DNA from: a virus | Length of the DNA: 64,000 nt | Direction: 5' to 3' (one strand) | IMG/VR virus record: IMGVR_UViG_3300021356_000002 | Shown: positions 1,715 to 57,990 of the stretch, in pieces | Layout: each line of letters opens with the position of its first letter | How positions within the stretch are numbered: position 1 is the first letter of the stretch | Made by a program: the position numbers and the translations under genes | Notes under the pieces: generated by a model | The model's database searches: none | The model's input: the letters and a program-made list of their open reading frames with translations, nothing else | Told to the model about the DNA's origin: nothing

Positions 1715-2941
1715 TTAGCCCCAAAGCACAAGTCCAGCAGAATCATAGATTACTAGTCTGAAGCCTTGTTCGTCTCGGAGTGCACCTTGGAATTGCAAGT
1801 CACCTCCAATAGATGCACTGTCAACTGTCGTGAGTTTCTGAACGGTAATTGGCTGATCAGTAGAGTCACCACGTCTTGTTACAGTTTGCAGTGTATCTGT
1901 TTCTGAGTCAAGAAGAGAAAGACCGCCTAAGTTTCTAAAACGTACCTGATCAGAATCGTTCAGAACCAAGAATCGAGTAACGCCTTCTTGCGAATCAAGT
2001 TGGTTCAGTTCAAGACGACCAACACTAATTCTGTCTAGACCAGGATTGTATGTGAATTGAATATCGGTATTGATACTGTCGATGCCGATATAATCACGTA
2101 CGAATAATGGATGATATTCGTTACTGTCATTGACATTGACAACTTGCACTTGCTTCGACGCTAATGCACCTTCTGCACTATCACCCGAAGGATCGCCTGC
2201 AACTACTTCGCCTGTAATTTCGTCAAGATAAAGAACTAAAGTTGTCTGTCTGTTTTCAACGTTCTTAAGAATCAACGTGTTGTTGATCTCAACGGTAGAG
2301 TCAAAGATGGTTGCTTTGTTTAGATTCCACGTATCGCTGGCGGCTTTGTAGTAAATTTGTGCGTTTGCACCAGCAACTGTAATACCTGCACTGTCTGCGG
2401 CTGCCGCACTTAGGGCACTGTCAGCCAGTACAATGTTCTTGTCGTTAATAGACAGTTCTGTTGAGTTAATCGTGGTAGTTGTGCCGTTGACCTGAAGATC
2501 ACCACCGACAATTAATCGACCAGAAATGAAAGCACTGTCAGCAATGACTCTGCCAACATCGATTGCGTTTGTTGTAGTATTACCACGAGCCGTAACTGTA
2601 TCGAGTGTGTCTTCTTCAAAAAAGGCTTCAGACAATTTTTTAACAGCAACACTATCAAGTGTGCCGTCGAAAGGATCGCCTTTGACGAATAGAGCATATA
2701 GCGAAGCAGAATCAGCAGAATCAAGCGAGCCGGGTTTGAAAGCAAGACCGCCCAGCGCAAGTTCGTCGGTCAGTACTCTAGTACCGTCGACCAAAGAAGT
2801 GACTACGGCGCCATCGGAGTCAGGGCGCCCAAAATTTGCTTCCGCTTGATCTAGCGTGATATAAAGAAAGCGATCAGAATCTAACTGACTCGGGTCTCTT
2901 ACCTTTACACGTCCGCTAACGTGTTCTATTCGTTTAGCCAT
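1715..2941 (-). CDS. Virion structural/fibre-like protein, Asp-Ser rich
   Basis: GDLQVNGTTTTINST and DTLDTVTARGNTT fibre-type motifs; inside the late module; 18 DS dipeptides in 408 aa. Confidence 0.7.
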   Translation of the reverse strand: MAKRIEHVSGRVKVRDPSQLDSDRFLYITLDQAEANFGRPDSDGAVVTSLVDGTRVLTDELALGGLAFKPGSLDSADSASLYALFVKGDPFDGTLDSVAVKKLSEAFFEEDTLDTVTARGNTTTNAIDVGRVIADSAFISGRLIVGGDLQVNGTTTTINSTELSINDKNIVLADSALSAAAADSAGITVAGANAQIYYKAASDTWNLNKATIFDSTVEINNTLILKNVENRQTTLVLYLDEITGEVVAGDPSGDSAEGALASKQVQVVNVNDSNEYHPLFVRDYIGIDSINTDIQFTYNPGLDRISVGRLELNQLDSQEGVTRFLVLNDSDQVRFRNLGGLSLLDSETDTLQTVTRRGDSTDQPITVQKLTTVDSASIGGDLQFQGALRDEQGFRLVIYDSAGLVLWG

Positions 2942-3302
2942 TTAGAGATTCCAGATAACTTAATACTAGTTTGAGTTTGCCGCTTGAGCCAGTAGAGCCC
3001 GAGCATCTAACTCTATTTGTTTCTTCTACGATCAATTTACCAGTAATTACACCAACAGCGTCTTTTGGCAGAACAGGAAGATCCTTCACAAGTTCTGTGT
3101 TCAAAACTTCGTCACGATCATAGTGAGTGAACGTTACGGTGTGTTCAGCAGAATCGAGATTCGCGATCTGCGCCATAAGCACAATCGCTGTAATCCCCTG
3201 CGGAACAACGTAGATGACATCGCTATCCCCGGTAAATCCACCAGGAGGTTCCTCTGGAACTACCGCAGTTGTCGTTTTAAATGTATTTAGTGGGATAGCC
3301 AT
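2934..3302 (-). CDS. Small virion structural protein
   Basis: MAIPLNTFKT...IYVVPQGITAIVLMAQIAN...LVLSYLESLNG, a type familiar from marine T4-like structural modules; coupled to its neighbours. Confidence 0.65.
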   Translation of the reverse strand: MAIPLNTFKTTTAVVPEEPPGGFTGDSDVIYVVPQGITAIVLMAQIANLDSAEHTVTFTHYDRDEVLNTELVKDLPVLPKDAVGVITGKLIVEETNRVRCSGSTGSSGKLKLVLSYLESLNG

Positions 3303-3305
3303 TTA

Positions 3306-6300
3306 TCAACCCTCTAGTGCTAGAATGTATGGTGTTAAGATTGCGTACAACGATCTTTCGAACGTCTCGCCCTCGATTCGACCAGCCTGTCTACGAATCG
3401 TCAATTCGGAGCCGATTCTAAAGTCACCAAGTTGATCGGTACTTGTGAATACAACCAAGCCTTCGTTCGTTTCTGAATCGAAGATAACTTCTTTTGTTGC
3501 ATCAGGAATACCACCATTCTGAGGAATGGCAGTAAATGTGTTTGTGCCTGAACCCACATATTCGAACGTGTGGGACGATGACGTAATCACAGAACGTTGT
3601 CTAAACGCGACTCTCTGATTGCGTATCATGTCTTGGTTCAATGGTGGTTCAAACGTAAGATTGTATACACCAGGAGCAACTGAATCGACACCAAGAACCG
3701 TATAAAAATAGTTCTCAGAATCGAACTTCATTGCATCGCCATAGTTTGGCTTTCTATATGATCCGTATACGTTGAGCCAGTCTGAAGAGTCGAGGTTGGT
3801 AACCTCATTAACTTGAATTACATCATCAAACTTCAGATGATCAGAATCGAGTATGCCGTCATAAAGAATCGGACTACTACCAGATGCAACTAGACCTCTA
3901 TCACCGAAACTTGAGTTAGAGTTTGTGATCGAACATTGACCACCAGTTTCGGCTAAGATAGATGTTCCTGTCGAAATCGTAAAGATCGATACTAGCTGTG
4001 CGTAACCACGATTCAGTAGATACGTTCCAATACCAGCCGCGTTGTACTGAGTAAATGCGTCAGATACCATCGAACGCAGACCCCACGCTTTTGAACCATC
4101 GATCTTCATACCAACACCGTCTGTGGTGATAGAAGTACAGTTCTGCACGTAAGGTGACTGAATGATGAACGGACCTGCTCTTGCAGAATCAACATTTGGG
4201 TTAAACGCAACGCAAGCCGCACCACTTTGATGATCTTTAAACGTAATGTCTTTTAAGAAACAACCGCTCTTGACATAGAACAGATCGGAGTCTACGCTTC
4301 TAGGTCGAATCGTGGTCGTTCTTAAGTTATCACCAACGATAGCGACTTTCTCAGGCAACTGAATTGGATTGTTGATTACGTAATCGCCCGACTTCAGATA
4401 TACTACGATATCATTAGTAGCATTACCTCTTTGAACCGATTGCTCAATGATAAGAGGACGTTCGTCATTGATTGCTTTAATTGCCGTTCTAAGTTCAGCA
4501 CTTACGCCTCTAGCCGCTAAACTAGGCTCTTGAACTGAATCAAGCGCATCTAAGTCGCCGTCTTGAATAATAGTGATTAGATTGTCTAATAGATCGTTGG
4601 TAACCTGTGCTTCTGTTGCAGTCGAGTATTGACCACCATTACCAGTAGTGTCAGGACCAGGGAATGCACCAGGATAAGTTCCACCTGAGTACAGATTTGT
4701 AGACAGGCTGTTAGAAAGCAACTCGTCTACGATCTGCTTCAAGTGCTGATAGGTCGTAGCAGTAGCCACAACCTCTGGATCACCTGCACTGTCACCCAAC
4801 TGATTCGTACCAAACGAGTAGTATGCACGTTTGACGATATCAGTAGCAAAGTTACCACCGTATAGTACGTCAAACGTCAGACCATCGACGATAAAGCCAA
4901 CGTCTCTCTTACATCTTACTCGGTCATAAGTTGCAGGACCATTTTGATCAGACCATGCAATCGTGCCCGCTTTCAAATCGGCAGAATCAGCCAAGATCAA
5001 ATTGTAAGATGCAGTCGTTGTTCCGCTAATGCCTGTGAAATCTGGATAGACCAAATCTCTTAATACATTATCGTTATTCGCTTCTAATACTTCATTAATG
5101 ATTTCAATGAGGTCGTCAACACGTGCTTGCTCAGTTGAAGTTGTTACATACGTGTTTACGATATTTTTGAGTTCGTCGTATGCCGCAATCGTAGGCAATC
5201 TCTCTGAGTCACTACCCAACTGATTTACTGCGTTTGAGTAATAAGCATCTGCACTTCTACGCGACTGGTAGTTACCACCGTACAGTACATCGTGCGTTAG
5301 ACCATCTAGAATATAGTCAACGTCTCGCTCACACTTAGTAGTATCATACGTAAGATCGGGATATACACTGTCAAGGAACGCAATCGTAGAGGCGATAATC
5401 GCAGTTTTGTTTGATTGAATTGCTGTGGCAGCCGCTTGCTGATTTGCCGAAGATGCTGGTGCCGCAGGGAATGTAAGTGTGTCTCTGTTCTCAAGACCAT
5501 TTGCAAGAATATCATTGATCTCTGCAATACTAGCATTAATACTTACACGTGAATTCGAATCGATAGCCAGTTCACCGATCAATCGACCTAGTTCGTTGAT
5601 TGCGCCAACGGTACCATCTAACTGCTGTCCGATTACTTTCTGTGTTGATACTGTTGCTCTGTAATAAGAAGAACCCGCAACAACACTGTTAACGTTTGTG
5701 CCGAGCATCAAATCAAGAGTCACAGCATCAATGATAAAACCTGTGTCACGTGAACACAACGTACGATCATACGTTAATGCTGGGAAGTTTTCTGCAATGT
5801 ATTGTACAAGTTCAGCCTTCAAATATTCTCTGTTGTTCTGAAGAATGACTGCGGCATCATCTGCGTCTGTTGTAGGCAAGACAACTGGCACTGGATACTC
5901 AACCGAGTCAGCAAAATTTTCTGTACTCTGAGTGCCGTTGACGAAAATGTCAACAACTTCCGACCAGTGTCTATTATTTCTTTCTACTGCACCGTCATAA
6001 CCAGTGCTGAGTTTTACTTCAGGAATAGAGAAGATGGCGCCTTTCGCTTCGTTGAAGGCACCTCTCGTTGCAGAAATCTGTTCATCAAGAACTTTGTTGG
6101 CTCCCGCTCTTTGATACGAAAGACCAGATGTCACTGCGTTATAGTTTGTTCCGAAAGCAATATCGAACTGCAAGCCATCTAAGATCAGATTTAAGTCGCG
6201 TTCACAAGTTGCTTCGTCAAATTCGAATTCTTGGATATCAGTAATAACACTGACGGCTGAATCGATAGTTTGAAATGCATCGCCAAGGGAAGTACCCAAG

Positions 6301-6512
6301 TTGCCAGGCTTTCCTCCCTTAGACACATAAAAGACTCTTGGCGTAGGATCGTCACCAACTTGAACGATGTCAACAACGCCATCTCGATCTTGCTTGATGA
6401 ACATCTTACCATCATGCGTGTTGATGGCAATTTCACCAAGATCAATATCGGCAATGCCCGGGCGCCTTAGCGGGACATCCGTCTTTTTATGGATAATTTT
6501 TGTTATTGCCAT
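3306..6512 (-). CDS. Large virion structural protein with four CxRD (phycobiliprotein-like) helical repeats inserted in a beta-helix-type scaffold
   Basis: N-terminal GEIAINTHDGKMF; FYVSKGG...G.SLGDAFQTI; four repeats C-x-R-D-h-x-[LFY]-I-h-D-[GA]; C-terminal SGDY..NNPI, QSPYVQNCTS, SMVSDAFTQ, SHTFEYVGSG. Confidence 0.75.
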   Translation of the reverse strand: MAITKIIHKKTDVPLRRPGIADIDLGEIAINTHDGKMFIKQDRDGVVDIVQVGDDPTPRVFYVSKGGKPGNLGTSLGDAFQTIDSAVSVITDIQEFEFDEATCERDLNLILDGLQFDIAFGTNYNAVTSGLSYQRAGANKVLDEQISATRGAFNEAKGAIFSIPEVKLSTGYDGAVERNNRHWSEVVDIFVNGTQSTENFADSVEYPVPVVLPTTDADDAAVILQNNREYLKAELVQYIAENFPALTYDRTLCSRDTGFIIDAVTLDLMLGTNVNSVVAGSSYYRATVSTQKVIGQQLDGTVGAINELGRLIGELAIDSNSRVSINASIAEINDILANGLENRDTLTFPAAPASSANQQAAATAIQSNKTAIIASTIAFLDSVYPDLTYDTTKCERDVDYILDGLTHDVLYGGNYQSRRSADAYYSNAVNQLGSDSERLPTIAAYDELKNIVNTYVTTSTEQARVDDLIEIINEVLEANNDNVLRDLVYPDFTGISGTTTASYNLILADSADLKAGTIAWSDQNGPATYDRVRCKRDVGFIVDGLTFDVLYGGNFATDIVKRAYYSFGTNQLGDSAGDPEVVATATTYQHLKQIVDELLSNSLSTNLYSGGTYPGAFPGPDTTGNGGQYSTATEAQVTNDLLDNLITIIQDGDLDALDSVQEPSLAARGVSAELRTAIKAINDERPLIIEQSVQRGNATNDIVVYLKSGDYVINNPIQLPEKVAIVGDNLRTTTIRPRSVDSDLFYVKSGCFLKDITFKDHQSGAACVAFNPNVDSARAGPFIIQSPYVQNCTSITTDGVGMKIDGSKAWGLRSMVSDAFTQYNAAGIGTYLLNRGYAQLVSIFTISTGTSILAETGGQCSITNSNSSFGDRGLVASGSSPILYDGILDSDHLKFDDVIQVNEVTNLDSSDWLNVYGSYRKPNYGDAMKFDSENYFYTVLGVDSVAPGVYNLTFEPPLNQDMIRNQRVAFRQRSVITSSSHTFEYVGSGTNTFTAIPQNGGIPDATKEVIFDSETNEGLVVFTSTDQLGDFRIGSELTIRRQAGRIEGETFERSLYAILTPYILALEG
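4850..6215 (-). repeat. Four protein-level repeats of ~140-150 aa centred on CxRD
   Basis: CERDLNLILDG (Cys ~6205), CSRDTGFIIDA (~5755), CERDVDYILDG (~5332), CKRDVGFIVDG (~4912); spacing 150, 141 and 140 aa. Confidence 0.9.
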
Positions 6513-6547
6513 GTTAAGTCTCTATCCTATCCATATTGCTGTATTTA

Positions 6548-7699
6548 TTAAAAGTCGCCGCCTTCGAATTCCAACAGTGAAACCTGCCCGTTAGAATCGA
6601 TAGTGAACTGTGCAGAATCGAAAAACGCTACGCCAGGCGTAGTTGAAGTAGCCGTTGGAACTGAAATGGTTAATTTGTCGCTATCGTCTGCGTATGTTAA
6701 AATGATAGCCTGACCTGCACGTAACAATTGGAACACATCGCTGTCAATAAACTCGCTTAGTGTTCTTTCACCAATATTGACTTCACCATTGAACGTTGCA
6801 GTAGAATCGAATGTAGTTGTACCTTGAATCGTTAATGCGCCAGGAATATCAAGGCTTGAATCGATTCTAAGATTATTGACGATAGCAGAGTCGAGTGTAG
6901 TAAGTCCTGATACATCGAGCGTATCATCAAATACACCAGCACCACTTACAGTGATTTTACCAGCAAAGGTAGCACTGTCGTTGAATGCGGCTAAACCTAA
7001 AACACTTAAATTACTATCGACTGTGAGATTATCAACGTTGATACGATCAGCAATAATCTCTACGATGGTTTGTGTGCCAAGCACTTGCAGATCGTTAAAG
7101 ATTGCAGAATCAGATACCGTCAGTCTACCCAGCGTAGCACTGTCTAAATCGATTGAACCGGCTTTTAATTCGTTGACTTTACCTTCGGAGTCTGTTATAA
7201 TAGCACTAGAAGCAGTTAGTACACCATGTGGATGATTCAGTAGATCAGTAAAATACTTACCACCGATTACATCAATGCGTTCTGCTTGTAGTACGCCCGC
7301 AACTGACGAATCGCCGCCAGCACCAATGAACAGACGATCACCGCCTAAGCCGAAGCCATCTGCGGAACTACCAGAGTCTGAAAGATATGAGTATGCTAAT
7401 TCACCTGTTCTTAAAACAAGTGGATCGCCCTGAGTGCCCGAGCGACGAATAAGAATCTGTGCACGATCTGAGTCAGATGGATAAACACGCCCATCGACGA
7501 TCTGCTTTCGAAGTGTTAGTGTGGCTTTCCAGTTACCTGACGCCGAGTCGTATTCGAAGAGTGAACCGTCTACTGCACCCGATGTGACAAGACCTGTGAT
7601 TGCATCAATGTCGGCACTAGCAGAAATAACAGCAGTACGATATGGAGTACCGTACGTTATCTTGCTTACTAATGTCCTGTTTCCTACTTGTACTGACAT
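6548..7699 (-). CDS. Virion fibre-like structural protein, Asp-Ser rich
   Basis: IRRSGT...GELAYSY...GGDRLFIG...VIGGKYFTD motif of marine T4-like fibre proteins; 16 DS in 383 aa. Confidence 0.7.
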   Translation of the reverse strand: MSVQVGNRTLVSKITYGTPYRTAVISASADIDAITGLVTSGAVDGSLFEYDSASGNWKATLTLRKQIVDGRVYPSDSDRAQILIRRSGTQGDPLVLRTGELAYSYLSDSGSSADGFGLGGDRLFIGAGGDSSVAGVLQAERIDVIGGKYFTDLLNHPHGVLTASSAIITDSEGKVNELKAGSIDLDSATLGRLTVSDSAIFNDLQVLGTQTIVEIIADRINVDNLTVDSNLSVLGLAAFNDSATFAGKITVSGAGVFDDTLDVSGLTTLDSAIVNNLRIDSSLDIPGALTIQGTTTFDSTATFNGEVNIGERTLSEFIDSDVFQLLRAGQAIILTYADDSDKLTISVPTATSTTPGVAFFDSAQFTIDSNGQVSLLEFEGGDF

Positions 7700-7706
7700 A
7701 CTGACC

Positions 7707-8060
7707 TCATGTTACCGAAGGCGTTACTGTTATAAGTCCTTCAAGAACTCTTTCTACGATAGTGTTGGCATCGCTATCTTGATATGAGATTTCCATATCA
7801 TAGACATATTTTCTCTTACTATTTAGCGTATCTGTGACGGTGTTTGTCAAAGATAAGTTAACGATACCTGCGGTCGGAGGAACAGTGACATAAGCGTCGA
7901 ATGAAATTTTGTCAGAACTGTCAACATCATATCGCGTACTCATTTTAGCCGCGGCTGAATAGCCTGACAAATCTTTTGCCGAACCATCGATGTTCGTAAG
8001 ATACACGTCCAGGGAAACGTCTGTTCCCTGATCGATAGTTAATTCTTCATACCTTGCCAT
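7707..8060 (-). CDS. Small structural protein (BppU N-terminal-like beta sandwich)
   Basis: LTIDQG.D...DLSGYSAAAKM...G.V.LSL...KYVYD.EI...RVLEG.ITVTPSVT; late promoter upstream. Confidence 0.65.
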   Translation of the reverse strand: MARYEELTIDQGTDVSLDVYLTNIDGSAKDLSGYSAAAKMSTRYDVDSSDKISFDAYVTVPPTAGIVNLSLTNTVTDTLNSKRKYVYDMEISYQDSDANTIVERVLEGLITVTPSVT

Positions 8061-8106: not shown

Positions 8107-8787
8107 TTAGGCGTGAATGTCTTCAATAATCCAATCTTGCATTCCTACAGCCATCTCTGATCTGTCGAGTACAAATGCAACTGTCATACGTAAACCTGTG
8201 TCCCCGTTCCGTGCTGTATGATATACCAGCTTCTCTTCAGGATCTTCGTATGCACCAAAGTAACCAACTTTACATTGCCAGCCTTTTTTATCAGGTATTG
8301 TTACCATTTCTTTCTTTTCATTGTCCCAGTGCTTCCACCAGCCGTCGCCAGTTTCGCTCCAAGTAAACACACAATTGAATGCTGAAGCATTCGCATTGTT
8401 GTGCCAAGAAATATATCCACCTGGCGGATAAACCGCAAATAGAGCATTACGTTTCAAATTGAACGTAGTTTGTATTTTTTGTAAAAACGCTTCCTGTTTT
8501 AGAGAGACTTCAGGAATTTTTGCTTGCGAAACTTTCTCTTTAGAGAAATGCATTTGTCCGATACCAAAGCCATGCGACACAACAACTTCTGGAAATCCAC
8601 CGTGACCCATACCTTGTGACTTAATAAGTTTAAAATATGCATCACCTGTATAATAGTCGGCGTCTTCTTTATTATGTTTGTCGGCTTTTGTCTTTACGAC
8701 AGCCTCGTAATTTTTATCTCTGGTAAACCAAAGTGCATCGTTCAAAATGTCGATAGCAAAATCGTTTAACGGTATGTCTCTCATCAA
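8107..8787 (-). CDS. Putative 2OG-Fe(II) oxygenase-like (DSBH) protein
   Basis: YPPGGYISWHNN...YHTA...RMTVAF pattern; H-x-N in place of the usual H-x-D. Confidence 0.55.
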   Translation of the reverse strand: MMRDIPLNDFAIDILNDALWFTRDKNYEAVVKTKADKHNKEDADYYTGDAYFKLIKSQGMGHGGFPEVVVSHGFGIGQMHFSKEKVSQAKIPEVSLKQEAFLQKIQTTFNLKRNALFAVYPPGGYISWHNNANASAFNCVFTWSETGDGWWKHWDNEKKEMVTIPDKKGWQCKVGYFGAYEDPEEKLVYHTARNGDTGLRMTVAFVLDRSEMAVGMQDWIIEDIHA

Positions 8788-9521
8788 AACTCCATGTGCT
8801 TCGCTTCCGAAGCAGAATAATGTCTAATAACAACAGGCTTCTTGTTGTGAGCATATTTATAGCGCGAGAAATAGTTCCATCTGGCATCATCTTCAAAAAT
8901 GCCCACTTTCAAGTCTTGATACTTTGGCTCTTTGTTTACAAGCCACCAAAGAGAAAACTGATCCCATCGTGACAATGATTTAGGATGAGTTTCATAATCT
9001 GCTTCGCCTTTTTCATTTATTGGCCACCATGTACCAGCATACTGTCGTACAGTGAGATCATACCAATCGTCCATAAACTCACGTACCAATGGATTGCGCA
9101 TGTCATACAGACAGACTGCTCCGCATAGTTCGAACTGACCACCAGGCCATTTTAGTTCTGCATAACAGTAAGAGCGTTCTTCGGGCAGACCAGTGTACAT
9201 CACATCATAGCCATTCAGTTCGTCAAAGACATGTTCAATGTCTTCATGCTCGACCTCAGTGTCGGCGTCAATGTAAAATGTAATATCCCACGGTGATTTT
9301 GCCATACCCCAAAGCTTGGCTCGCTTGTGATCGTTGCAGAAAATTATTTCGTCTGCGAGTCTTCGTCCTCGATCATCAAGAAATCTTTCTTCGCAGACCA
9401 AACAAATATTTGCGTCAGGATAGAAATCCCGAATTGAGTCCATTAAATTACATGCAGAAGCATAAAAGAAACTTCGCCGTGACGCAACGATTACGTAACC
9501 TTTAGTTGGCTCCTGCGTCAT
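8784..9521 (-). CDS. GT-A fold glycosyltransferase (GT8-like)
   Basis: KLWGMAKSPWDITFYIDADT (DxD), WDQFSLW, RWNY...IRHYS; probable start MTQEPTK. Confidence 0.7.
   Translation of the reverse strand: MTQEPTKGYVIVASRRSFFYASACNLMDSIRDFYPDANICLVCEERFLDDRGRRLADEIIFCNDHKRAKLWGMAKSPWDITFYIDADTEVEHEDIEHVFDELNGYDVMYTGLPEERSYCYAELKWPGGQFELCGAVCLYDMRNPLVREFMDDWYDLTVRQYAGTWWPINEKGEADYETHPKSLSRWDQFSLWWLVNKEPKYQDLKVGIFEDDARWNYFSRYKYAHNKKPVVIRHYSASEAKHMEF
8854..8861 (-). promoter_or_regulatory. Possible late promoter TATAAATA inside the GT gene
   Basis: Exact match ~67 nt upstream of the oxygenase-like gene start. Confidence 0.45.
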
Positions 9522-9978
9522 CTTTGTCTCCATAATAGCCCAATTCTTTCGCAATCAAAACTGCACATAGCGCATTCATTTCCACTGCACTTTGCGCTCG
9601 ACGGATTTTGCCACGTAATATACGATCTTCAGAATTTTTAATTTGCTCAATTTCAAAAGCCTGAAGTTTGAGATTAAAAAGTTGCTCTAGTTCAGCAGTC
9701 TTTTTCTTTTGCTCGTGATGTGCGCGTTTTTCTCTGTTCTCGCGCTCTTTTCGCTCTTTGCGTTCAGCGGTATTTTCGTCGATCTTTACGACACCAACTT
9801 TGTCAACCACTTCTTTATAATGAGGGCATTCAGAACCGTCCGGACGAATCTTGCGAAACTCCATTACGTCTTTTTTCTTACCCTTTTGACCTTCAAGCGT
9901 AGTTAGCCTAATACATTTTAGAACTGAGCGATCCTCCGTTTCCCAAAATGCATTATCTAAGTACTCATACTTTGCCAT
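9502..9978 (-). CDS. Hypothetical charged protein directly downstream of the giant fibre gene
   Basis: 158-aa ORF with GGAG SD and a coiled-coil-like centre. Confidence 0.75.
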   Translation of the reverse strand: MAKYEYLDNAFWETEDRSVLKCIRLTTLEGQKGKKKDVMEFRKIRPDGSECPHYKEVVDKVGVVKIDENTAERKERKERENREKRAHHEQKKKTAELEQLFNLKLQAFEIEQIKNSEDRILRGKIRRAQSAVEMNALCAVLIAKELGYYGDKDDAGAN

Positions 9979-9993
9979 AATTTACTCCATATT

Positions 9994-12900
9994 TTAAGCA
10001 ACACGTACGTATAATGTATATGTCTCAATTGTTACCGGTGTTGATGTTAATTTAGCGTCATCCAAATATGCTTCTGCAATGTTAACTACCAAGTTGTAAT
10101 CAGATTCGTAACTAGAACCTTCGTATGGTGAACCGCCATAAACTTCTAAGTCGCCTGTGCCTTCAAACGCACCTATGTATTCTTCAGCATCATCGCCAGT
10201 AATATAAGTGCTGTAGTCTTGAGTCGATTCGAAATCGGAAGAGTAAGTCTCTACATATGCATCACCAGTATAACTGACTTCAATGTTTCTTGTATAGTCT
10301 AATGATATGTAGTCAACCGAAAACTCTTGGGAATACGATTGTTCAGTGTAGTTTGAAAGATACTCGCCAACATAATCTCCTGGTGCACCTTCATAGTCGG
10401 GCGTATAGTCACCAGTATAAACTGTTTCGTATGTCGGAGTATAGTTACCGATATATGCAGTAACATAAACGTCTTGTGCTATGTAGTCTTCAAGGTAATC
10501 AGACTCATAATCTTGTACATATGTTTCAACAAAATCACCAGTGTAGTCAACTTCATAATTGCCTGTGTACGTTACGATAAAGTCGCCTGTATACTGTCCT
10601 TCAAAATTAGAAAGGTAATCGCCTGAGTAATTCGCTTGATAGTTACCAGTGTAATCAGACAAGTAATCGCCAGTATACTGACCTTCAAATATTGATACAA
10701 AATCGCCTGTATACACAGATTGATAGTTACCGATATATGCTTTTACGTAATCGCCAACATATTGACCTTGGAAAATCTGTAAGAAGTCCCCAGTGTAAAT
10801 TGCGACATAATCGCCAGTATAGTCAGACTGATAATTGCCAGTATACTGACCTTCAAAGTCTTGTACGAAGTCTGCTTCATAAGTTTCTAAGAAGTTGCCA
10901 GTGTAGTTTACGTTAAAGTCGCCGACATACTGTCCTTCAAACGTAGCAAGAAAGTCGCCTGTATAGCCTGATGTATAATCGCCTGTGTACGTAGTTTCAT
11001 AGTTTCCTTCGTATTGGCCCGCAAACCCTTGCAAGAAATCGCCAGAGTAAACCGCAGTAAAATCACCAGTGTAGTCTTGCAAGAAGTTTCCAACATACTG
11101 ACCTTCAAACGTGGCAGTGAAGTTACCTTGATAATTTGATACGTAGTTACCAGAGTATTGTGCCTGAGCATATGTCGAAATATAATCACCAGTATAGATG
11201 TTGGTAAAGTCACCCGTGTAAACTTGAGTAAAGTCACCGCCATATACTTGATCAGCATAATTTCCTATGTAGTCACCAGTATATCGAGAAATATAATCGC
11301 CTTGATAATTACCAGTATATTGAACAGCAAAATTGCCAGTATAGTTCGATATGTAATCACCAGTATACTGTTGCGAAACAAAGTTGGCTGTAAAGTCGCC
11401 AGTGTAATCAGAGATATAATCGCCAGTATATGTTGTGACGAAGTTACCAGTGTAGTTTGCTTGAACGTATACTGTAGTATATGTGCCAGTATATGTTGCT
11501 AAAAAATCACCAACATATTGACCCTGGAAAGTCTGAGTAAAGTTTGACTGATACTGAGTGTTAAAATCAGCATTGTATGTCTGTAAGAAATCACCGACGT
11601 ACTGCCCTTGGAATGTGGCTGTGAAACTAGAAACATAGTTGCTGAGATAATTACCAGTATACTGTGCCGCAAAGTTACCAACATATTGTCCCTGGAACGT
11701 AGCAAGAAAATCACCAACATAGTTTCCAGTATAAGCCGCCGTAAAATCGCCAGCATATTGTGAGATATAGTTACCAGTGTATGGTGCAGTAAAGTTGCCG
11801 ACATATTGACCCTGGAAAGTCTGAGTAAAGTCGCCAGTATATTGTTGAGTAAACGTTGCGACATAACCTGATACGTAGTTACCTTGATACTGACCTTGGA
11901 AAGTCTGTAAGAAGTCGCCAACATACTGACCTTGGAACGTACCCAAGAAGTCTCCCACGTAATTCGATACGTAGTTACCCACATAGTTCGCATCAACAAA
12001 GGTCGCTAAGAAATTGCCTTGATAGGTTCCAGTGTAGTTACCCGTATATGTTCTTAAAAAGTTACCTGAGTAGTTTGCATCAACGAACGTCTGAGTGAAG
12101 TTGCCCGTGTATCGTGACACATAGTCTCCCGAGTAACTTGCAGTAAAGTTACCCGTATAGTTTGCATCAACGAACGTCTGGGTAAACGAACTGGTATACG
12201 ATTGATTAATTGTTCTTGTATACTGACCAGTATAGTTACCAGTATAGTTCGCATCAACGAATGTTATGTTGACAGCAGAAACGTAACTACCAACGTACGA
12301 CTGTTGAATCGAGCCAACATAGGTTTGCTGAATCGAGCCAACATATGTTCCTGTATAAGTGCCGCCGCCACCAGTATATCCGCCAGTGTATGTTAATCCA
12401 GTTAAAAGGAATCTTCTTCGAACTTCATAATATCGATAGGTCCCGCTGAAGCTGCCAGTGCCGAATCGGAAATTACCTCTATCATATTCATAGCCTCCTC
12501 GAACAACCGGAGTTGTCAATCCAGGTTCGGTCAGTGCGTAAATGGTGCTAGCCCAACGAAGCTGGTTATTACTTTCTATTCCGCTATTTCGAGGCTGAAA
12601 AGTCCGCCAGTAATATTGAGGAGAACTAAAAGTGAAGAAATACGCTGAATAGGCACCTGGACCAACGTAGCCGCCTTGATAAGAGGTTGCGGCACTTGCA
12701 TAACCACCAAGATAGTTTCCGACATATGTGCCAGTGTAGTTACCGACATATGTGCCTGTGTAAGTCCCTTGATAATTTGCAGAAAACGAACCCGTATACT
12801 GCCCTTGGAACGTAGCGGCAAATGAACCTGTATAACTTTGGTTGATTGTTCTTGTATACTGACCAGTATAGTTACCAACATACTGTCCCTGGAATGTGGC

Positions 12901-15900
12901 TAAGAAGTCGCCCAAATAAGCCTGAATAAAGTTGCCATCATAGTTGGCTAAGAAATCACCAACGTACTGACCCTGGAATGTTCCTAAGAAGTCACCAGTA
13001 TATCGAGCAACAAAGCTACCAGCGTATCCAGATACGTAATCGCCTTGATACTGACCTTGGAACGTAGCAGTAAAGTCGCCTGAGTAAGTTGCTAAAAAGT
13101 TACCAGTATAGTTCGCGTCAACGAACGTCTGTAAGAAGTTGCCTGTATAGTTCGCTTGTGCGTAATTCGAAATGTAATCACCAGCATATGTTACGTTACG
13201 ACCTCCAGTATATTGAGCCGTAAAGTTGCCCACATAGTTCGCATCAACGAACGTTGTAACAAAGTCACCGGTATAACGGGCAAGAAAATCGCCAGAATAT
13301 TGTGCGAGGAAGTTACCAGTGTAAGCCGCACGAATATAATCCGAAGCATAATTACCAGTGTAGTTTGCATCAACGAATGTAGTTAGAAAATCGCCTTGAT
13401 AGTTTGCGGTAAAGTCGCCAGTGTAAGTAGCGGCAAAGTTACCAGTATAGTTGGCTTGCACATAAAGCGAAACGTAGTTACCAGTATATGCCTGCAAGAA
13501 ATTACTCTCGTATTGCGAGATGTAATCGCCTGTATAGTTAGCAGAAATAAATGTGTTTACAAAGTTACCAGTGTACGGCTCTTCGTAAACAGTAACGTAC
13601 TGCCCTTGGAATGTCTGAACAAAATCACCGACATAATTCGAAGTGTAGTTACCAGCGTACGTCGAAAGATAGTTACCAGTGTACTGACCTTCAAACGCTT
13701 GAGTGAAGTTGCCTGAATAAGTAACTAAGAAGTCACCAGTATAGGTAGCTGTGACGTAATTTGATACGTAGTTACCGTCATAGTTGACTTGATAATTGCC
13801 CTGATACTGACCCTCGAAGCCTTGAATGAAATTACCAGTATAATTCTGCGTAAAGTTACCAGTGTATTGAGACTGATAGTTACCTTGATACTGTCCTTCG
13901 AACGTTGCAATAAAGTCGCCAGAATAACTTACAATGAAGTCACCGGTGTATTGTGCTTGAGCGTAGTTTTGTGTAAAGTCGCCAGAGTATTGAGACTGAT
14001 AATTTCCTGTATAGTCAGAAATATAGTTACCGGTGTAAGTCTGTTGCTCATAGGTACCAATATAATCGCCAGAATAGTCTGACTGATAGTTACCCTGATA
14101 TTGAGACTGATAGTTACCAGTGTACTGCGCTTGAGCATAAGTCTCAGTGAAATTGCCAGTATAGATGTCAGTAAAGTCACCGGTATACTGTTCTATGAAA
14201 TTACCACCGTAGACTAGCTGAATATAAGTTTCTAAGAAGTCGCCTGTATAGGGCACTTGATATTCAGAAGCGTATTGTGACTGGTAATTACCAGTATAAT
14301 TTTCTTGTGCGTAAGTGACTGTGTAAGACGTTGAATATGCCTGAAGAAAATCACCCGTATAGGGCTGAGTAAAGTTACCAGCATACTCTGTCTGAATATA
14401 GTTGACAGTAAAATTGCCTTCGTAATTTTCTGTGTAGTCACCAGTGTACACATCGATGTAATTGCCAGTATAGACATCATCGATATAATTCTCTGTAAAG
14501 TTACCGCTGTAGTCGATAACATAATCACCGACATATAGCTCAGTGAAGTTACCTGTATATTCTTCTTCAACATAAGCGGCAACGTAGTTACCAGTGTAGA
14601 TAACTGGCGCATCACCATACAATTCAGCATAGTCTGCGGCATACACTTCAAGCGTATCATCCGCTTCGTAGATAGTTGTATACTGCTCTTCGACTGTAAG
14701 ACCAGAATAGTTAGGAATATATTCTCCTTCGTAACCGCTCTCATAGGATTGTGCGTACGTAAGAAGATAATCACCTATGTAACTTTGTGCGTAGTCGCCG
14801 CTAAACGTACCAATGTACGTAGCCTCATAATCACCAGTATAGGAAGATGAATACGTAGCACCGTATTCGCCAACATAGTTCGATTCATATGTGTCTACGT
14901 AATTTCCGATATAGTCAGGAACATAAGACCCTTGATACTGTGAAGTGTAATTGACATCATACGAATCAACTGAGACATAAGCAGTCTCAGATTCGTATGT
15001 CAAGTTGGTATCAATCGCAGAACCACGTGCTTCCCAAGTTCCCGGAGCAGTCGGTGGACCATCAGCAGAAGATCGAAGTTGATATTTACCAATGCCAGTG
15101 TCTTGAATGACTTGCTTCATTCGCTCGCCGAAGGTCATCTCAACTTCAGCATCACCAAGATGCTTGATTCCTTCAAACTTGTTAGTCACTGCTTGACGTA
15201 AAGGCGAAATGGGCTTAACTACTGCTGGAACAGTTGAGTCTGTCTTAACCCAGATAGAATATGTTACAAGAGATCCATCGCCTCGAGTGTCTTCGAATAC
15301 GTCTGCGATAAACTCTGACCACTGTGCGCCTGGAGATACTGTAGCAAGTCGATACTGACCAGGATAATCGTTCGAAAATATTTTTAAAAGAAGTCGTTGT
15401 ACTACAACGTCGAGTTCTGCATCGCTCATTTCTTTCAAGCCAGCAGGCGTTGCAGTTCTATCCCAGTAAAGTGGATTCTTTTTCAGATCACTGTCGTTGT
15501 CAATTATTGCTACAGCCGTATCGTTCTGATATAACTCATACAGAGTGGCAGAAGTAGTTGGCTTCAACTGTGGCTCTACACGCACAGAGGTTAGTACCTC
15601 AGCATCGCTCGCACCAGCAACACTATTTTGCAGATCAGTAGTAGAACCGTTGATAGTAAAGTTGATTACGCCATCGTCAGTGATGGGAACAGTCCACGTG
15701 ACTTCATAAGAGCCAGTGAGATTGCCATCAGGATAATTTTCCCACGAAACAGAACGACCGTTTGAAGTTGTGTGAGTCGCAGTAGGCGTTGTCGATGTTG
15801 TAATCGTGCCTATTGCCGCAGAACCCGAAATACCCAACTGATATTCGATTTCTTCAAATCCAACACCAGTATTTGTTGCGGTGCCTTGGAGCGTTAGTTC

Positions 15901-16230
15901 AATGGTGTCGCCAACATAGACAACACTAGGCAATGGCGTATAAGAACCAATGGTAACTGTATGCGTTGATCCTGCTGGATCAGATGCGTGAGTAATCGTA
16001 AATGTTCGACTAGTCGTAGTGCCAGGAATAGGACCTATACCAGATGTATAAAAAGTGTCTTCAAACGTGCCAACAAGTTCGGCTGCCGCGTTCGTAGAGA
16101 GCGCAGACAAATCACTTGTTGTCATTTTACTTAAATGAACACCCGCTCGATAAGCCAGATAATCTTCTTCAGAAGTCAGTAGCTCTTTGAACGCACCTTC
16201 ATTTAAGTGTTTGAGAGGACGATAAGACAT
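9994..16230 (-). CDS. Giant (2078 aa) repeat fibre protein with central non-repetitive tip domain
   Basis: ~410-aa N-terminal domain, ~770-aa Y/F-x-G-x arm, ~90-aa unique domain (12395-12660), second ~770-aa arm; late promoter upstream. Confidence 0.8.
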   Translation of the reverse strand: MSYRPLKHLNEGAFKELLTSEEDYLAYRAGVHLSKMTTSDLSALSTNAAAELVGTFEDTFYTSGIGPIPGTTTSRTFTITHASDPAGSTHTVTIGSYTPLPSVVYVGDTIELTLQGTATNTGVGFEEIEYQLGISGSAAIGTITTSTTPTATHTTSNGRSVSWENYPDGNLTGSYEVTWTVPITDDGVINFTINGSTTDLQNSVAGASDAEVLTSVRVEPQLKPTTSATLYELYQNDTAVAIIDNDSDLKKNPLYWDRTATPAGLKEMSDAELDVVVQRLLLKIFSNDYPGQYRLATVSPGAQWSEFIADVFEDTRGDGSLVTYSIWVKTDSTVPAVVKPISPLRQAVTNKFEGIKHLGDAEVEMTFGERMKQVIQDTGIGKYQLRSSADGPPTAPGTWEARGSAIDTNLTYESETAYVSVDSYDVNYTSQYQGSYVPDYIGNYVDTYESNYVGEYGATYSSSYTGDYEATYIGTFSGDYAQSYIGDYLLTYAQSYESGYEGEYIPNYSGLTVEEQYTTIYEADDTLEVYAADYAELYGDAPVIYTGNYVAAYVEEEYTGNFTELYVGDYVIDYSGNFTENYIDDVYTGNYIDVYTGDYTENYEGNFTVNYIQTEYAGNFTQPYTGDFLQAYSTSYTVTYAQENYTGNYQSQYASEYQVPYTGDFLETYIQLVYGGNFIEQYTGDFTDIYTGNFTETYAQAQYTGNYQSQYQGNYQSDYSGDYIGTYEQQTYTGNYISDYTGNYQSQYSGDFTQNYAQAQYTGDFIVSYSGDFIATFEGQYQGNYQSQYTGNFTQNYTGNFIQGFEGQYQGNYQVNYDGNYVSNYVTATYTGDFLVTYSGNFTQAFEGQYTGNYLSTYAGNYTSNYVGDFVQTFQGQYVTVYEEPYTGNFVNTFISANYTGDYISQYESNFLQAYTGNYVSLYVQANYTGNFAATYTGDFTANYQGDFLTTFVDANYTGNYASDYIRAAYTGNFLAQYSGDFLARYTGDFVTTFVDANYVGNFTAQYTGGRNVTYAGDYISNYAQANYTGNFLQTFVDANYTGNFLATYSGDFTATFQGQYQGDYVSGYAGSFVARYTGDFLGTFQGQYVGDFLANYDGNFIQAYLGDFLATFQGQYVGNYTGQYTRTINQSYTGSFAATFQGQYTGSFSANYQGTYTGTYVGNYTGTYVGNYLGGYASAATSYQGGYVGPGAYSAYFFTFSSPQYYWRTFQPRNSGIESNNQLRWASTIYALTEPGLTTPVVRGGYEYDRGNFRFGTGSFSGTYRYYEVRRRFLLTGLTYTGGYTGGGGTYTGTYVGSIQQTYVGSIQQSYVGSYVSAVNITFVDANYTGNYTGQYTRTINQSYTSSFTQTFVDANYTGNFTASYSGDYVSRYTGNFTQTFVDANYSGNFLRTYTGNYTGTYQGNFLATFVDANYVGNYVSNYVGDFLGTFQGQYVGDFLQTFQGQYQGNYVSGYVATFTQQYTGDFTQTFQGQYVGNFTAPYTGNYISQYAGDFTAAYTGNYVGDFLATFQGQYVGNFAAQYTGNYLSNYVSSFTATFQGQYVGDFLQTYNADFNTQYQSNFTQTFQGQYVGDFLATYTGTYTTVYVQANYTGNFVTTYTGDYISDYTGDFTANFVSQQYTGDYISNYTGNFAVQYTGNYQGDYISRYTGDYIGNYADQVYGGDFTQVYTGDFTNIYTGDYISTYAQAQYSGNYVSNYQGNFTATFEGQYVGNFLQDYTGDFTAVYSGDFLQGFAGQYEGNYETTYTGDYTSGYTGDFLATFEGQYVGDFNVNYTGNFLETYEADFVQDFEGQYTGNYQSDYTGDYVAIYTGDFLQIFQGQYVGDYVKAYIGNYQSVYTGDFVSIFEGQYTGDYLSDYTGNYQANYSGDYLSNFEGQYTGDFIVTYTGNYEVDYTGDFVETYVQDYESDYLEDYIAQDVYVTAYIGNYTPTYETVYTGDYTPDYEGAPGDYVGEYLSNYTEQSYSQEFSVDYISLDYTRNIEVSYTGDAYVETYSSDFESTQDYSTYITGDDAEEYIGAFEGTGDLEVYGGSPYEGSSYESDYNLVVNIAEAYLDDAKLTSTPVTIETYTLYVRVA
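10090..14990 (-). repeat. Coding tetrapeptide-period repeat (YTGN/YTGD/FxxT) in two arms
   Basis: Aromatic residue every 4th position, punctuated by FQGQ/FEGQ units and 5-residue FVDAN/YAQAN units. Confidence 0.95.
12209..12877. repeat. 33-bp perfect direct repeat flanking the fibre tip (12209-12241 and 12845-12877)
   Basis: attgttcttgtatactgaccagtatagttacca at both positions; copies 636 nt (212 codons) apart, in frame. Confidence 0.9.
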
Positions 16231-32342: not shown

Positions 32343-33097
32343 TAAACCCTCTCAAGCAATCGCTTAAATTCGCCCACTACTTTTTCGATGTACTCTTTTT
32401 TAATTACACGAATTTTTCTTGCTTCGGTGTTCTGTTGCTCAAGAAACTCAAGATTGGTAATAGGTATTTTTCCTAGACCTCCTACAGCGGAATCGGTCTG
32501 ATAGAAGAAGTCAACCCAATTTTCTGAATCGTCTTCGTAGTGATGAATGCCTTGATACTCATATGCAATACCGCTCAAGGCATATAGATTTGTTCCGTCA
32601 GCATATGTTACGGCGCTTTTACCTGTGATATCACTGTCCGAAGAAATAGTCATTTCGCCTAGATCGACGTTCTTTCGAACAACAACGCCTTGACTGCCTT
32701 GCACTAACACGTCCTGTCCAACAGGATATAATTTTGCAAACGTTCTTGCATCTGCACTATCTCTTTCTTGAAACCCAAGCTTGGCTGTATAGTTCGGAAA
32801 AAGAGTGTTCTGAGCATATTCATAAAGTTGCTTCGTGTCTTTTGGCCAGCCAGTTTCACGAAGTCTTTCATTCATCAAAAAGAATGTCCAATCATACTCA
32901 CTCTTGCCGTACAATTTATATGACAGCGTGTCTGGTCTATCTCCGTCCCGAATCTCATACTCGATGTATGCGCCTTGATCGTCGCGAATCGTATCAATCA
33001 ACTCAACATATTGCGTCAACTTCTGAAAGAGTACGGGCTCTTCTTCATCACCAAATAAGTAGAGTACTTTCGGAAAATTTTCAAAGTAATTCGACAT
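32342..33097 (-). CDS. gp53: Baseplate wedge subunit gp53
   Basis: MSNYFENFP, YEIRDGDRPDTLSYKLYG..YDW, WP, HHYE, TNLEFLEQQN..RKIRVIK. Confidence 0.92.
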   Translation of the reverse strand: MSNYFENFPKVLYLFGDEEEPVLFQKLTQYVELIDTIRDDQGAYIEYEIRDGDRPDTLSYKLYGKSEYDWTFFLMNERLRETGWPKDTKQLYEYAQNTLFPNYTAKLGFQERDSADARTFAKLYPVGQDVLVQGSQGVVVRKNVDLGEMTISSDSDITGKSAVTYADGTNLYALSGIAYEYQGIHHYEDDSENWVDFFYQTDSAVGGLGKIPITNLEFLEQQNTEARKIRVIKKEYIEKVVGEFKRLLERV

Positions 33098-55978: not shown

Positions 55979-55980
55979 AA

Positions 55981-57988: not shown

Positions 57989-57990
57989 GT

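What the first reader, a model, noticed from the sequence alone, without database searches (positions are those of the whole stretch)
1715..7699. Strong Asp-Ser enrichment in virion proteins: candidate O-glycosylation sequon
Seen (hand counts): 18 DS in the 408-aa protein (only about 4 SD), 16 in the 383-aa protein, about 15 in the 1068-aa protein, and further DSA/DSD/DSV sites in gp8, gp53, the gp25 extension and the VrlC-like protein. I see none in gp32 and only about 3 in the D/S-rich 2078-aa fibre, so it is not just composition. The sites are dispersed rather than a tandem repeat, and DSA is frequent. Established: Bacteroidetes O-glycosylate D-(S/T)-(A/I/L/V/M/T), and some phages glycosylate their virions with their own glycosyltransferases. 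Inference: DS is a selected modification tag on surface-exposed virion proteins, served by the phage glycan cluster, giving a glycan-coated particle.
Basis: partly seen in the sequence, partly recalled or inferred. Interest (0 to 1): 0.82.

Follow-up and report, generated by a model that had tools for sequence, protein, structure and literature searches.

The report
Asp-Ser motif in phage tail fibres
Three neighbouring tail-fibre proteins of an uncultured marine T4-like phage carry three to five times more Asp-Ser pairs than chance predicts; the pairs most likely form turns and caps in the fibre fold, and a sugar-attachment role is unproven but not excluded.

Summary
The counts are exact: 18, 16 and 15 Asp-Ser (DS) in the 408-, 383- and 1068-aa proteins against 3.5, 4.2 and 7.1 expected. 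Selection acts on the protein. Both serine codon families are used, SD is at chance, DT is depleted and ES is absent. The excess is confined to these host-recognition-cluster fibres, with a weak signal in gp53. All other virion proteins in the window have 37 DS against 45.5 expected, so this is not a virion-wide tag.

Homologues down to about 37% identity keep the excess, with many invariant D+S columns. The context is hydrophobic-D-S-Ala-x-hydrophobic, and the sites sit mostly at strand ends. The 383-aa protein is confidently predicted as an intertwined trimer. Where DS is lost, other turn residues replace it.

T4, Melnitz, HTVC008M and S-PM2 fibres lack the excess. A syntenic relative and phage C48C1 have it, but the enzyme genes they share are also markers of that clade, so the link is confounded.

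The Bacteroidota sequon fails on Thr use, on the third residue and on cell compartment.

Best reading: a lineage-specific structural corner or cap motif (0.5). A serine-modification tag remains possible (0.3).

This scan has noted the same motif on other marine T4-like phage DNA, with split verdicts.

The parts
1715..2941 (-). 408-aa fibre protein with the strongest DS excess (18 against 3.5). Six D+S columns are invariant in 18 homologues.
2934..3302 (-). 122-aa small protein (phrog_1276) that always sits directly upstream of the 408-aa gene in related loci. It has 2 DS.
3306..6512 (-). 1068-aa tail-fibre or tailspike-like protein with 15 DS against 7.1. The seven C-terminal sites (741-1012) are mostly near-invariant in 19 homologues. 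The N-terminal sites are mostly variable.
6548..7699 (-). 383-aa fibre protein with 16 DS against 4.2. It has an N-terminal anchor domain shared with Melnitz, Mosig and P-HM1 fibres, followed by a shaft and a C-terminal domain.
6770..7141 (-). Codons 187-310 of the 383-aa protein: the predicted intertwined homotrimeric shaft (triple beta-helix-like), holding DS sites 197, 228, 241, 270, 280 and 298.
7707..8060 (-). 117-aa protein resembling a tail-fibre assembly protein (phrog_3304), conserved upstream of the 383-aa gene.
8107..8787 (-). 226-aa conserved protein, possibly cupin or 2OG-oxygenase-like (weak leads only), inside the fibre cluster. A candidate modifying enzyme, unproven.
8784..9554 (-). 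256-aa conserved protein with a DAD motif, likely a GT-A-fold nucleotide-sugar transferase, inside the fibre cluster. A candidate modifying enzyme, unproven.
9994..16230 (-). 2078-aa giant fibre, used as a contrast: it is DS-poor (3 against 9.1, with 14 SD).
32342..33097 (-). gp53-like baseplate protein with a weak DS excess (4 against 1.0). Its G002 orthologue has 7 against 1.6, all DS[A/V].
46815..47762 (-). TET-associated glycosyltransferase (TAGT). Orthologues in Aeromonas T4-like phages are annotated as hydroxymethylcytosine-DNA glucosyltransferases, so it is probably a DNA-modifying and not a protein-modifying enzyme.
48751..49500 (-). 249-aa protein with colinear GNGPS..CN..SG..GxD motifs and a weak profile match to the Cst-II sialyltransferase (GT42/Maf-like). 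It is restricted to the DS-rich clade among the genomes tested.

Best explanation
The DS pairs are a lineage-specific structural motif of the fibre modules in this phage's host recognition cluster. The local pattern is hydrophobic, Asp, Ser, small residue (mostly Ala), any residue, hydrophobic. The two hydrophobic residues pack into the core of a trimeric, intertwined beta-structure or of a helical segment. Asp-Ser-Ala between them forms the corner, turn or N-cap that links successive strands or helices. Fibre units are gained, lost and exchanged between fibre genes, and each unit brings its own DS. This is why several fibre proteins of one clade are DS-rich, while the rest of the virion and other T4-like phages are not.

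Shown here: the enrichment, its selection at the protein level, its conservation, the sequence context and the predicted trimer. Inferred: the corner or cap role.
For: 1. Context. A hydrophobic residue occupies position -1 in 58% of sites and +4 in 46% (background 32%), and Ala occupies +1 in 35% (background 8%). This phase shift between two core positions fits a turn, or a helix N-cap with a hydrophobic staple.

2. AF2 monomer secondary structure of the 383-aa protein. 12 of 16 DS lie in coil against 50% of all residues. Five are the first residue after a strand and one is at a helix N-cap. In the shaft, 5 of 7 sit at strand-to-turn boundaries.

3. Homotrimer of residues 160-383. Score 0.87, best of 3 controls 0.01. 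That mark was reached by 20 of 30 proteins solved as pairs of one chain and by 1 of 23 solved as single chains. The runs agree in at least 95% of contacts and the partner pLDDT is at least 90. Every residue from 187 to 310 is in the interface, with an i to i+5/6 offset. The tightest pairs involve the -1 residues (227, 269, 297) and the +4/+5 residues (233, 245, 274, 302/303) of DS sites, never D or S itself.

4. Conservation. Six DS columns are invariant in 18 homologues of the 408-aa protein at 39-90% identity. Four of the seven C-terminal sites of the 1068-aa protein are D19 with S18-19 of 19, and the other three are D13-19 with S17-19.

5. Replacements. Where DS is replaced, the substitutes are polar turn or cap residues (DT, SN, ES, DP, SS, DN, DG, NG). 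A non-T4 phage has NN at site 135, and S-PRM1 has SS and DA at sites 21 and 41.

6. Inserted units in homologues bring their own DS.

7. In C48C1 the DS excess comes from an 88-residue tandem repeat with DS at the start of each helical sub-unit. In G002 a 525-aa neck fibre has ADSA at the start of Ala-rich helical segments.

8. Modules are shared between DS-rich proteins (hhalign 88.6% between the 408 and 383 families).

9. The excess is absent from the giant fibre in this window, and from the capsid, sheath and portal genes of the relatives G002 and C48C1.
Against: A purely structural role does not explain why one clade uses D-S almost exclusively where other phages use a mix of N, D, S, T and G.

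It also does not explain why the excess appears in proteins of different folds: a beta shaft, a helical fibre, a beta-helix domain and gp53 loops.

Distant homologues keep gaining DS at new positions at about twice the composition rate (5-7 new sites against 2.3-3.2 expected).

Ser to Thr is rare (DS:DT is 28:1 at those columns), and Glu almost never replaces Asp. This strictness resembles enzyme recognition.

The monomer models are of low confidence (pLDDT 39 and 58). No coordinates were available to measure exposure. No solved homologue exists.
Confidence: 0.5

Rival explanations
1. DS, mostly as DS-Ala or DS-Asp/Glu, is a recognition tag read in the cytoplasm by a phage-encoded enzyme that modifies the serine of exposed fibre corners. 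The modification is most plausibly a sugar. Candidate enzymes are the GT-A-like 256-aa protein and the cupin-like 226-aa protein inside the fibre cluster, and the Cst-II/Maf-like 249-aa protein in the glycan cluster.
For: The D and S identities and their orientation are strict: SD is at chance, ES is 0 against 6.3, and DS:DT is 28:1.

The excess occurs in several protein families of different folds.

New DS sites keep appearing in distant homologues.

The sites lie at corners and loops, which are likely to be exposed.

Among T4-like genomes tested, the window, G002 and C48C1 have both the DS excess and the three candidate genes; G001, whose DS content was not measured, carries a 408-family homologue and the 249-aa and 256-aa genes. 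Melnitz, HTVC008M, S-PM2 and T4 have neither.

The 256-aa protein has a DAD motif and Atlas feature scores of 0.97 to Nucleotid_trans/GT8 clusters. The 249-aa family shares four colinear motifs with Cst-II.

Known precedents for an Asp-flanked serine as acceptor are SdgB/SdgA on staphylococcal Ser-Asp repeats (PMC3794999, PMC8561734) and the Bacteroidota motif (PMC12871550).
Against: No modification has been shown.

The co-distribution is confounded by phylogeny, because the enzymes and the DS-rich fibre families are markers of the same clade. There are at most two semi-independent contrasts.

All enzyme assignments are weak. The 256-aa and 226-aa proteins have no Pfam hit of their own, and the Cst-II match has E 0.015.

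Site-by-site invariance over 40% identity is unusual for a coat of dispensable glycans.

The largest exposed fibre is DS-poor.

In C48C1 the excess is explained by one tandem repeat.
Confidence: 0.3
2. DS-(A/I/L/V/M/T) is the Bacteroidota general O-glycosylation sequon, and the virion proteins are glycosylated by that kind of system.
For: 55% of the 49 sites (27) fit D-S-[AVILMT]. Asp is required and Glu is not tolerated, as in Bacteroides fragilis.
Against: Thr is avoided (DT O/E 0.6), whereas that system uses both Ser and Thr.

The third residue is A, then D, V, E, N, with almost no L or I. The Bacteroidota order is L, I, V, T, A, S, M.

Invariant DSD and DSE sites do not fit the sequon.

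That system modifies only non-cytoplasmic proteins in the periplasm (PMC12871550), whereas phage virions assemble in the cytoplasm (established knowledge).

The nearest relatives with a known host infect SAR11, OM43 and cyanobacteria, not Bacteroidota.
Confidence: 0.02
3. The Asp-Ser pairs have another direct function at the fibre surface or axis. Examples are cation binding that stabilises the trimer in seawater, or contact with the host receptor.
For: Asp and Ser side chains are common metal ligands. The sites are regularly flanked by core residues in a threefold shaft. The proteins are host-recognition fibres.
Against: There is no match to any known metal-binding repeat, and no evidence that the side chains point to the axis. 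A receptor-binding role would not need 15-18 dispersed sites that include anchor domains.
Confidence: 0.08

Closest known systems
Host recognition cluster (HRC) of pelagimyophages and cyanomyophages (Zaragoza-Solas et al. 2020, PMC7029224)
   Same: [quoted passage not shown] That block holds tail fibres interspersed with glycosyltransferase-like genes.
   Different: The paper reads the glycosyltransferases as modifiers of host LPS and does not describe any Asp-Ser signature. The cultured members tested here (HTVC008M, Melnitz, S-PM2) lack the DS excess.
Triple beta-helix and other intertwined trimeric phage fibre shafts (such as the T4 gp5 C-terminal needle, gp12, and the endosialidase stalk; from general knowledge)
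   Same: The 383-aa protein is predicted as a homotrimer with a continuous interface over residues 187-310 and an i to i+5/6 inter-chain register. Core hydrophobic residues flank polar corners.
   Different: There is no sequence or fold match to any solved fibre. T4 fibres show no DS excess. The corner residues here are almost always Asp-Ser-Ala.
Bacteroidota general O-glycosylation sequon D-(S/T)-(A/L/V/I/M/T) (PMC12871550, PMC8550257)
   Same: Asp directly before the hydroxyl residue is obligatory, Glu is not accepted, and a methyl-bearing residue often follows.
   Different: Here the motif is Ser-only, the third residue is often D, E or N, and the targets are cytoplasmically assembled virion proteins. 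The Bacteroidota system is periplasmic, and the host here is not known to be Bacteroidota.
SdgB/SdgA O-GlcNAcylation of staphylococcal Ser-Asp repeat adhesins (PMC3794999, PMC8561734; abstracts seen)
   Same: Serines flanked by Asp are the acceptors of dedicated soluble glycosyltransferases. About a quarter of the sites here are DSD or DSE.
   Different: Those are long tandem (SD)n runs in disordered stalks. Here the sites are single, dispersed and embedded in folded fibre modules. No SdgB-like GT-B enzyme was looked for or found.
Cst-II (GT42) sialyltransferase and Maf flagellin glycosyltransferases
   Same: The 249-aa family shares the colinear GNGPS, CN, SG and GxD blocks and gives a weak profile match to Cst-II (E 0.015-0.03). 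Its G002 orthologue gives a weak MptE-like hit.
   Different: The scores are below significance, the catalytic region is not aligned, no nonulosonic-acid pathway was found in the window, and no link to the fibres has been shown.

Membership tests
Bacteroidota general O-glycosylation sequon | Both Ser and Thr are accepted after Asp | tested here: not met
   DT is 9 against 14.9 expected in the three fibres. At DS columns of homologues, DS occurs 1871 times against 67 for DT.
Bacteroidota general O-glycosylation sequon | The third residue is A/I/L/V/M/T (order L, I, V, T, A, S, M) | tested here: not met
   Only 27 of 49 sites fit. Ala dominates, L and I are nearly absent, and D/E/N follow in about a third of sites, including the invariant DSD741, DSE931 and DSE345.
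Bacteroidota general O-glycosylation sequon | The targets are non-cytoplasmic proteins modified in the periplasm | not tested
   No signal-peptide prediction was run. By established knowledge tailed-phage virions assemble in the cytoplasm, and the review states that only non-cytoplasmic proteins are modified.
Bacteroidota general O-glycosylation sequon | The host belongs to Bacteroidota | not testable with these tools
   No host is known. The nearest phages by gp6 infect Methylophilales, SAR11 and cyanobacteria.
SdgB/SdgA-type Ser-Asp repeat glycosylation | Long tandem Ser-Asp dipeptide repeats serve as acceptor | tested here: not met
   The sites are dispersed, with spacings of 3-118 residues, and there are no SD runs.
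Intertwined homotrimeric phage fibre shaft | Homotrimer with a continuous inter-chain interface along the shaft | tested here: met
   Prediction only. Score 0.87 against a best control of 0.01, pLDDT 91, all of residues 187-310 in contact, with an i to i+5/6 register.
Intertwined homotrimeric phage fibre shaft | Similarity to a solved fibre fold | tested here: not met
   No PDB sequence match. Foldseek gave no match at E <= 0.001 on a low-confidence monomer model.
Host recognition cluster of marine T4-like myophages | A variable fibre block between the VrlC gene and gp13/gp14 that contains glycosyltransferase-like genes | tested here: met
   The gene order is VrlC-like (DUF4815), 2078-aa fibre, 158-aa, 256-aa GT-A-like, 226-aa, 117-aa, 383-aa, 1068-aa, 122-aa, 408-aa, gp13, gp14.
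GT42 / Maf-like transferases (249-aa protein) | Significant profile match and conserved catalytic residues | tested here: inconclusive
   The profile match to Cst-II has E 0.015-0.03 over positions 1-133, with four colinear motifs. There is no Pfam hit in 22 members, and the catalytic His region is not aligned.

The most novel reading that the evidence does not exclude
A clade of uncultured marine T4-like phages marks the exposed corners of its host-recognition fibres with Asp-Ser, which serves as the acceptor site for a phage-encoded cytoplasmic enzyme that modifies the serine, probably with a sugar. The candidates are the GT-A-like and cupin-like pair inside the fibre cluster, or the Cst-II/Maf-like protein. 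This would be a sequon-directed virion modification system in a Gram-negative-infecting phage.
Probability: 0.3. Interest if true: 0.8.

Novelty: new variant of a known kind. Interest (0 to 1): 0.45.

Why it matters
If the motif is structural, it is a simple sequence signature for a family of marine phage fibre modules that has no solved structure. It would help with annotating and modelling host-recognition proteins of abundant uncultured phages.

If it is a modification tag, it would be the first sequon-like protein modification system described for T4-like marine phages. It would also change how the many 'LPS-type' glycosyltransferases in their host recognition clusters are read.

Either way, the motif defines concrete serines to test by mass spectrometry and mutagenesis.

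Tried and rejected
DNA-level motif (GANTC-like): rejected. DS uses both serine codon families, and GAYTC is not enriched out of frame.

Composition artefact: rejected by shuffles and by the SD, DT and ES controls.

Generic property of phage fibres: rejected. T4 gp34-37, gp12, gp10 and wac, and the fibres of Melnitz, HTVC008M and S-PM2, are all at chance.

Near-identical cultured phage: none found.

Solved homologues of the 408 and 383 families: none.

AF2 monomers: poor (pLDDT 39 and 58). Foldseek on the 383 model gave only insignificant beta-solenoid rows.

Pfam and PDB searches for the 256-aa and 226-aa proteins gave nothing significant. Only Atlas feature leads and weak GT2 hits were obtained.

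CST-I (PF06002) search of relatives: uninformative, because nothing rang even in the controls.

IMG/VR records G007 and G008, which are DS-poor and lack the candidate enzymes, turned out to have no gp6. They are not T4-like and so are unfair comparators.

Whole-genome analysis of the window's own phage was impossible because no genome is held.

I did not test register periodicity of DS in the shaft beyond inspection. The spacings are not a clean multiple of one period.


Full report
**Observation.** The window is the baseplate and fibre module of a T4-like phage (1-34 kb, minus strand). It is followed by gp32, ThyX, heme oxygenase with a bilin reductase, and a sugar-related gene cluster.

| Protein | Coordinates | DS observed | DS expected |
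|---|---|---|---|
| 408 aa | 1715-2941 | 18 | 3.5 |
| 383 aa | 6548-7699 | 16 | 4.2 |
| 1068 aa | 3306-6512 | 15 | 7.1 |

In 2000 shuffles of each protein, 0, 0 and 4 reached the observed count. The reverse pair SD is at chance. Pooled over the three proteins, DS has O/E 3.3, DT 0.6, and ES is 0 against 6.3 expected. DS is written with both TCN and AGY serine codons, and GAYTC is not enriched out of frame, so selection acts on the protein.

**Scope.** The excess is not virion-wide.
- All other virion proteins in the window together have 37 DS against 45.5 expected. Non-structural proteins have 24 against 30.3.
- The VrlC-like, gp25-like and gp8-like proteins are at chance.
- The 2078-aa fibre is DS-poor (3 against 9.1).
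- Only the gp53-like protein is nominally high (4 against 1.0).

The three DS-rich genes lie between the VrlC-like gene and the neck genes gp13/gp14. This is the host recognition cluster described for pelagimyophages and cyanomyophages (PMC7029224).

**Conservation.** There is no close cultured relative. By gp6 the nearest are phage C48C1 (40%), Melnitz and HTVC008M. Metagenomic homologues of all three proteins keep the excess. DS O/E is 2.2-5.3 across the sampled homologues of the 408-aa protein (37-99% identity) and 2.1-4.8 across those of the 383-aa protein (34-98%). It is lower (1.4-2.7) in the 1068-aa family.
- In 18 homologues of the 408-aa protein, six D+S columns are invariant: 21, 74, 96, 135, 288 and 400.
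- In the 1068-aa family the C-terminal sites 741, 908, 931 and 943 are D19 with S18-19 of 19. Sites 775, 889 and 1012 are slightly more variable.
- There is also turnover. The 18 sequences hold 38 distinct DS columns. Distant homologues carry 5-7 DS at positions where the window has none, against 2.3-3.2 expected.
- At the window's DS columns, homologues keep DS in 62% of cells. Replacements are polar turn or cap residues (DT, SN, ES, DP, SS, PA, DN, DG, NG), and DS:DT is 28:1.

**Structural context.** The site pattern is hydrophobic (-1), D, S, Ala or another small or acidic residue (+1), any residue, hydrophobic (+4). That is a phase shift between two core positions. It fits a beta-arc or turn, or a helix N-cap with a hydrophobic staple.

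The AF2 monomer models are poor (pLDDT 39 and 58). In the 383-aa model, 12 of 16 DS lie in coil against 50% of all residues. Five are the first residue after a strand and one is at a helix N-cap.

A homotrimer of residues 160-383 is predicted with score 0.87 against a best control of 0.01. That mark was reached by 20 of 30 proteins solved as pairs of one chain and by 1 of 23 solved as single chains. The runs agree in at least 95% of contacts and the pLDDT is 91. All of residues 187-310 lie in the interface with an i to i+5/6 register, which is the signature of an intertwined triple-stranded shaft. The tightest contacts involve the -1 and +4/+5 residues of DS sites, never D or S.

Further points in the same direction:
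- Inserts in homologues bring their own DS units.
- The 408 and 383 families share a module (hhalign 88.6%).
- A non-T4 phage sharing that module has NN where the window has DS135.
- Cyanophage S-PRM1 has SS and DA at sites 21 and 41.
- Melnitz keeps DS at site 170 of the shared anchor domain.

**Comparison across phages.** The fibres and baseplates of T4, Melnitz, HTVC008M and S-PM2 are at chance.

A syntenic IMG/VR relative, G002 (152.7 kb, 91% complete, 37-70% protein identity), has no genome-wide excess (215 DS against 238 expected). It has four enriched proteins:
- the orthologues of the 383-aa and 408-aa proteins;
- the gp53-like protein (7 against 1.6, all DS[A/V]);
- a 525-aa neck fibre in which ADSA opens Ala-rich helical segments.

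C48C1 has unrelated, coiled-coil-like fibres with DS[D/E] at 17 against 3.2 and 10 against 2.4. In the first of these, most DS come from an 88-residue tandem repeat with DS at the start of each helical sub-unit.

**Candidate enzymes.** Part of the 'glycan cluster' is probably not protein-directed. The TAGT gene (46815-47762) has 43-50% identical orthologues in Aeromonas, Vibrio and other phages, and several of those records annotate them as hydroxymethylcytosine-DNA glucosyltransferases.

The cluster also holds two GT25 genes, a GT8-like gene, two radical SAM genes, methyltransferases, an epimerase and a HAD-nucleotidyltransferase. Genes 52272-58557 are absent from G002's cluster; only the epimerase has a homologue elsewhere in G002.

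Three conserved genes are better candidates for acting on fibres.
- The 256-aa protein inside the fibre cluster has a DAD motif. Its Atlas feature score is 0.97 to Nucleotid_trans/GT8 clusters, and 7 of 11 members give weak GT2 hits.
- The adjacent 226-aa protein has only weak cupin or 2OG-oxygenase leads.
- The 249-aa protein (48751-49500) has a family profile that weakly matches Cst-II (E 0.015-0.03), with colinear GNGPS, CN, SG and GxD blocks.

Among cultured-collection phages, all three occur only in C48C1. G002 carries all three, and G001 carries the 249-aa and 256-aa genes. So the DS excess and these genes co-occur, but both are markers of one clade. The contrast set is small, and the link is confounded by phylogeny. 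G007 and G008 lack gp6 and are not fair comparators.

**Against the Bacteroidota analogy.** That system accepts Ser and Thr, prefers L, I, V, T, A, S, M after the acceptor, and modifies only non-cytoplasmic proteins in the periplasm (PMC12871550). Here Thr is avoided. Only 27 of 49 sites fit the third-residue rule, and invariant DSD and DSE sites exist. The targets are virion proteins, which assemble in the cytoplasm by established knowledge. The shared feature is the strict need for Asp and not Glu. SdgB/SdgA glycosylation of staphylococcal Ser-Asp repeats (PMC3794999, PMC8561734) is a precedent for Asp-flanked serine acceptors of soluble transferases, but those acceptors are long tandem repeats.

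**Verdict.** The most economical reading is a lineage-specific corner or cap motif of the fibre modules of this clade's host recognition cluster (confidence 0.5).

That reading does not fully explain three things: the exclusive use of D-S, its appearance in proteins of different folds, and the continuing gain of new sites. A phage-encoded serine modification therefore remains a live alternative (0.3). The Bacteroidota-type mechanism is very unlikely (0.02), and another direct role such as cation binding is possible (0.08).

Earlier notes of this scan report the same motif on other marine T4-like phage DNA, with split verdicts between structural and tag. I used them only as leads.

Noticed in passing
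window 8107-9554 (-): A 256-aa GT-A-like protein (DAD motif) and a 226-aa cupin-like protein overlap each other inside the fibre cluster. They are far better conserved (58-91% identity in 23-25 related loci) than the fibres around them (about 37-57%).
   Followed up: partly
window 46815-47762 (-): The TET-associated glycosyltransferase has 43-50% identical orthologues in T4-like Aeromonas phages and in Vibrio, Tenacibaculum and other phages, several annotated as beta-glucosyl-HMC-alpha-glucosyltransferase. This suggests glycosylated hydroxymethyl-pyrimidine DNA. No TET/JBP gene was seen in the window.
   Followed up: partly
window 45239-46818 (-): Heme oxygenase, a ferredoxin-dependent bilin reductase-like gene and a DUF454 gene lie in a row. 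This bilin pathway is shared with G002 and absent from C48C1.
   Followed up: no
window 9994-16230 (-): The 2078-aa giant fibre is DS-poor (3 against 9.1 expected) but has 14 SD, the opposite bias to its neighbours.
   Followed up: no
window 57991-58557 (-): A 188-aa protein of unknown function (phrog_34507) inside the sugar cluster has 5 DS against 1.6 expected (3 DS[D/E]). It has no orthologue in G002 or C48C1.
   Followed up: no
window 52272-58557 (-): A block of eight genes is inserted in the sugar cluster relative to the syntenic relative G002: 182-aa, 288-aa, epimerase, 227-aa, 246-aa, FkbM methyltransferase, HAD-nucleotidyltransferase and 188-aa. This is a variable sugar-nucleotide cassette.
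   Followed up: partly
L101:16306-21012 (phage C48C1, OQ984149.1): A 1568-aa 'baseplate wedge tail fiber connector' is built from about 88-residue tandem repeats, each with three or four helix-start DS motifs (IRT-DS-E, LI-DS-K, VT-DS-D, LI-DS-A).
   Followed up: partly
G002 139485-141062 (L099/L100): A 525-aa fibre after the neck genes repeats ADSA at the start of Ala-rich helical segments. It also carries the G-x-DS-V-N-x-D-x-x-F-T-Y-N-P module that is found in the 408-aa protein.
   Followed up: no
window 58554-59096 and 61559-62191 (-): Two small proteins in the sugar cluster give weak PHROG hits to 2OG-Fe(II) oxygenases (phrog_61). They sit next to two radical SAM genes.
   Followed up: no
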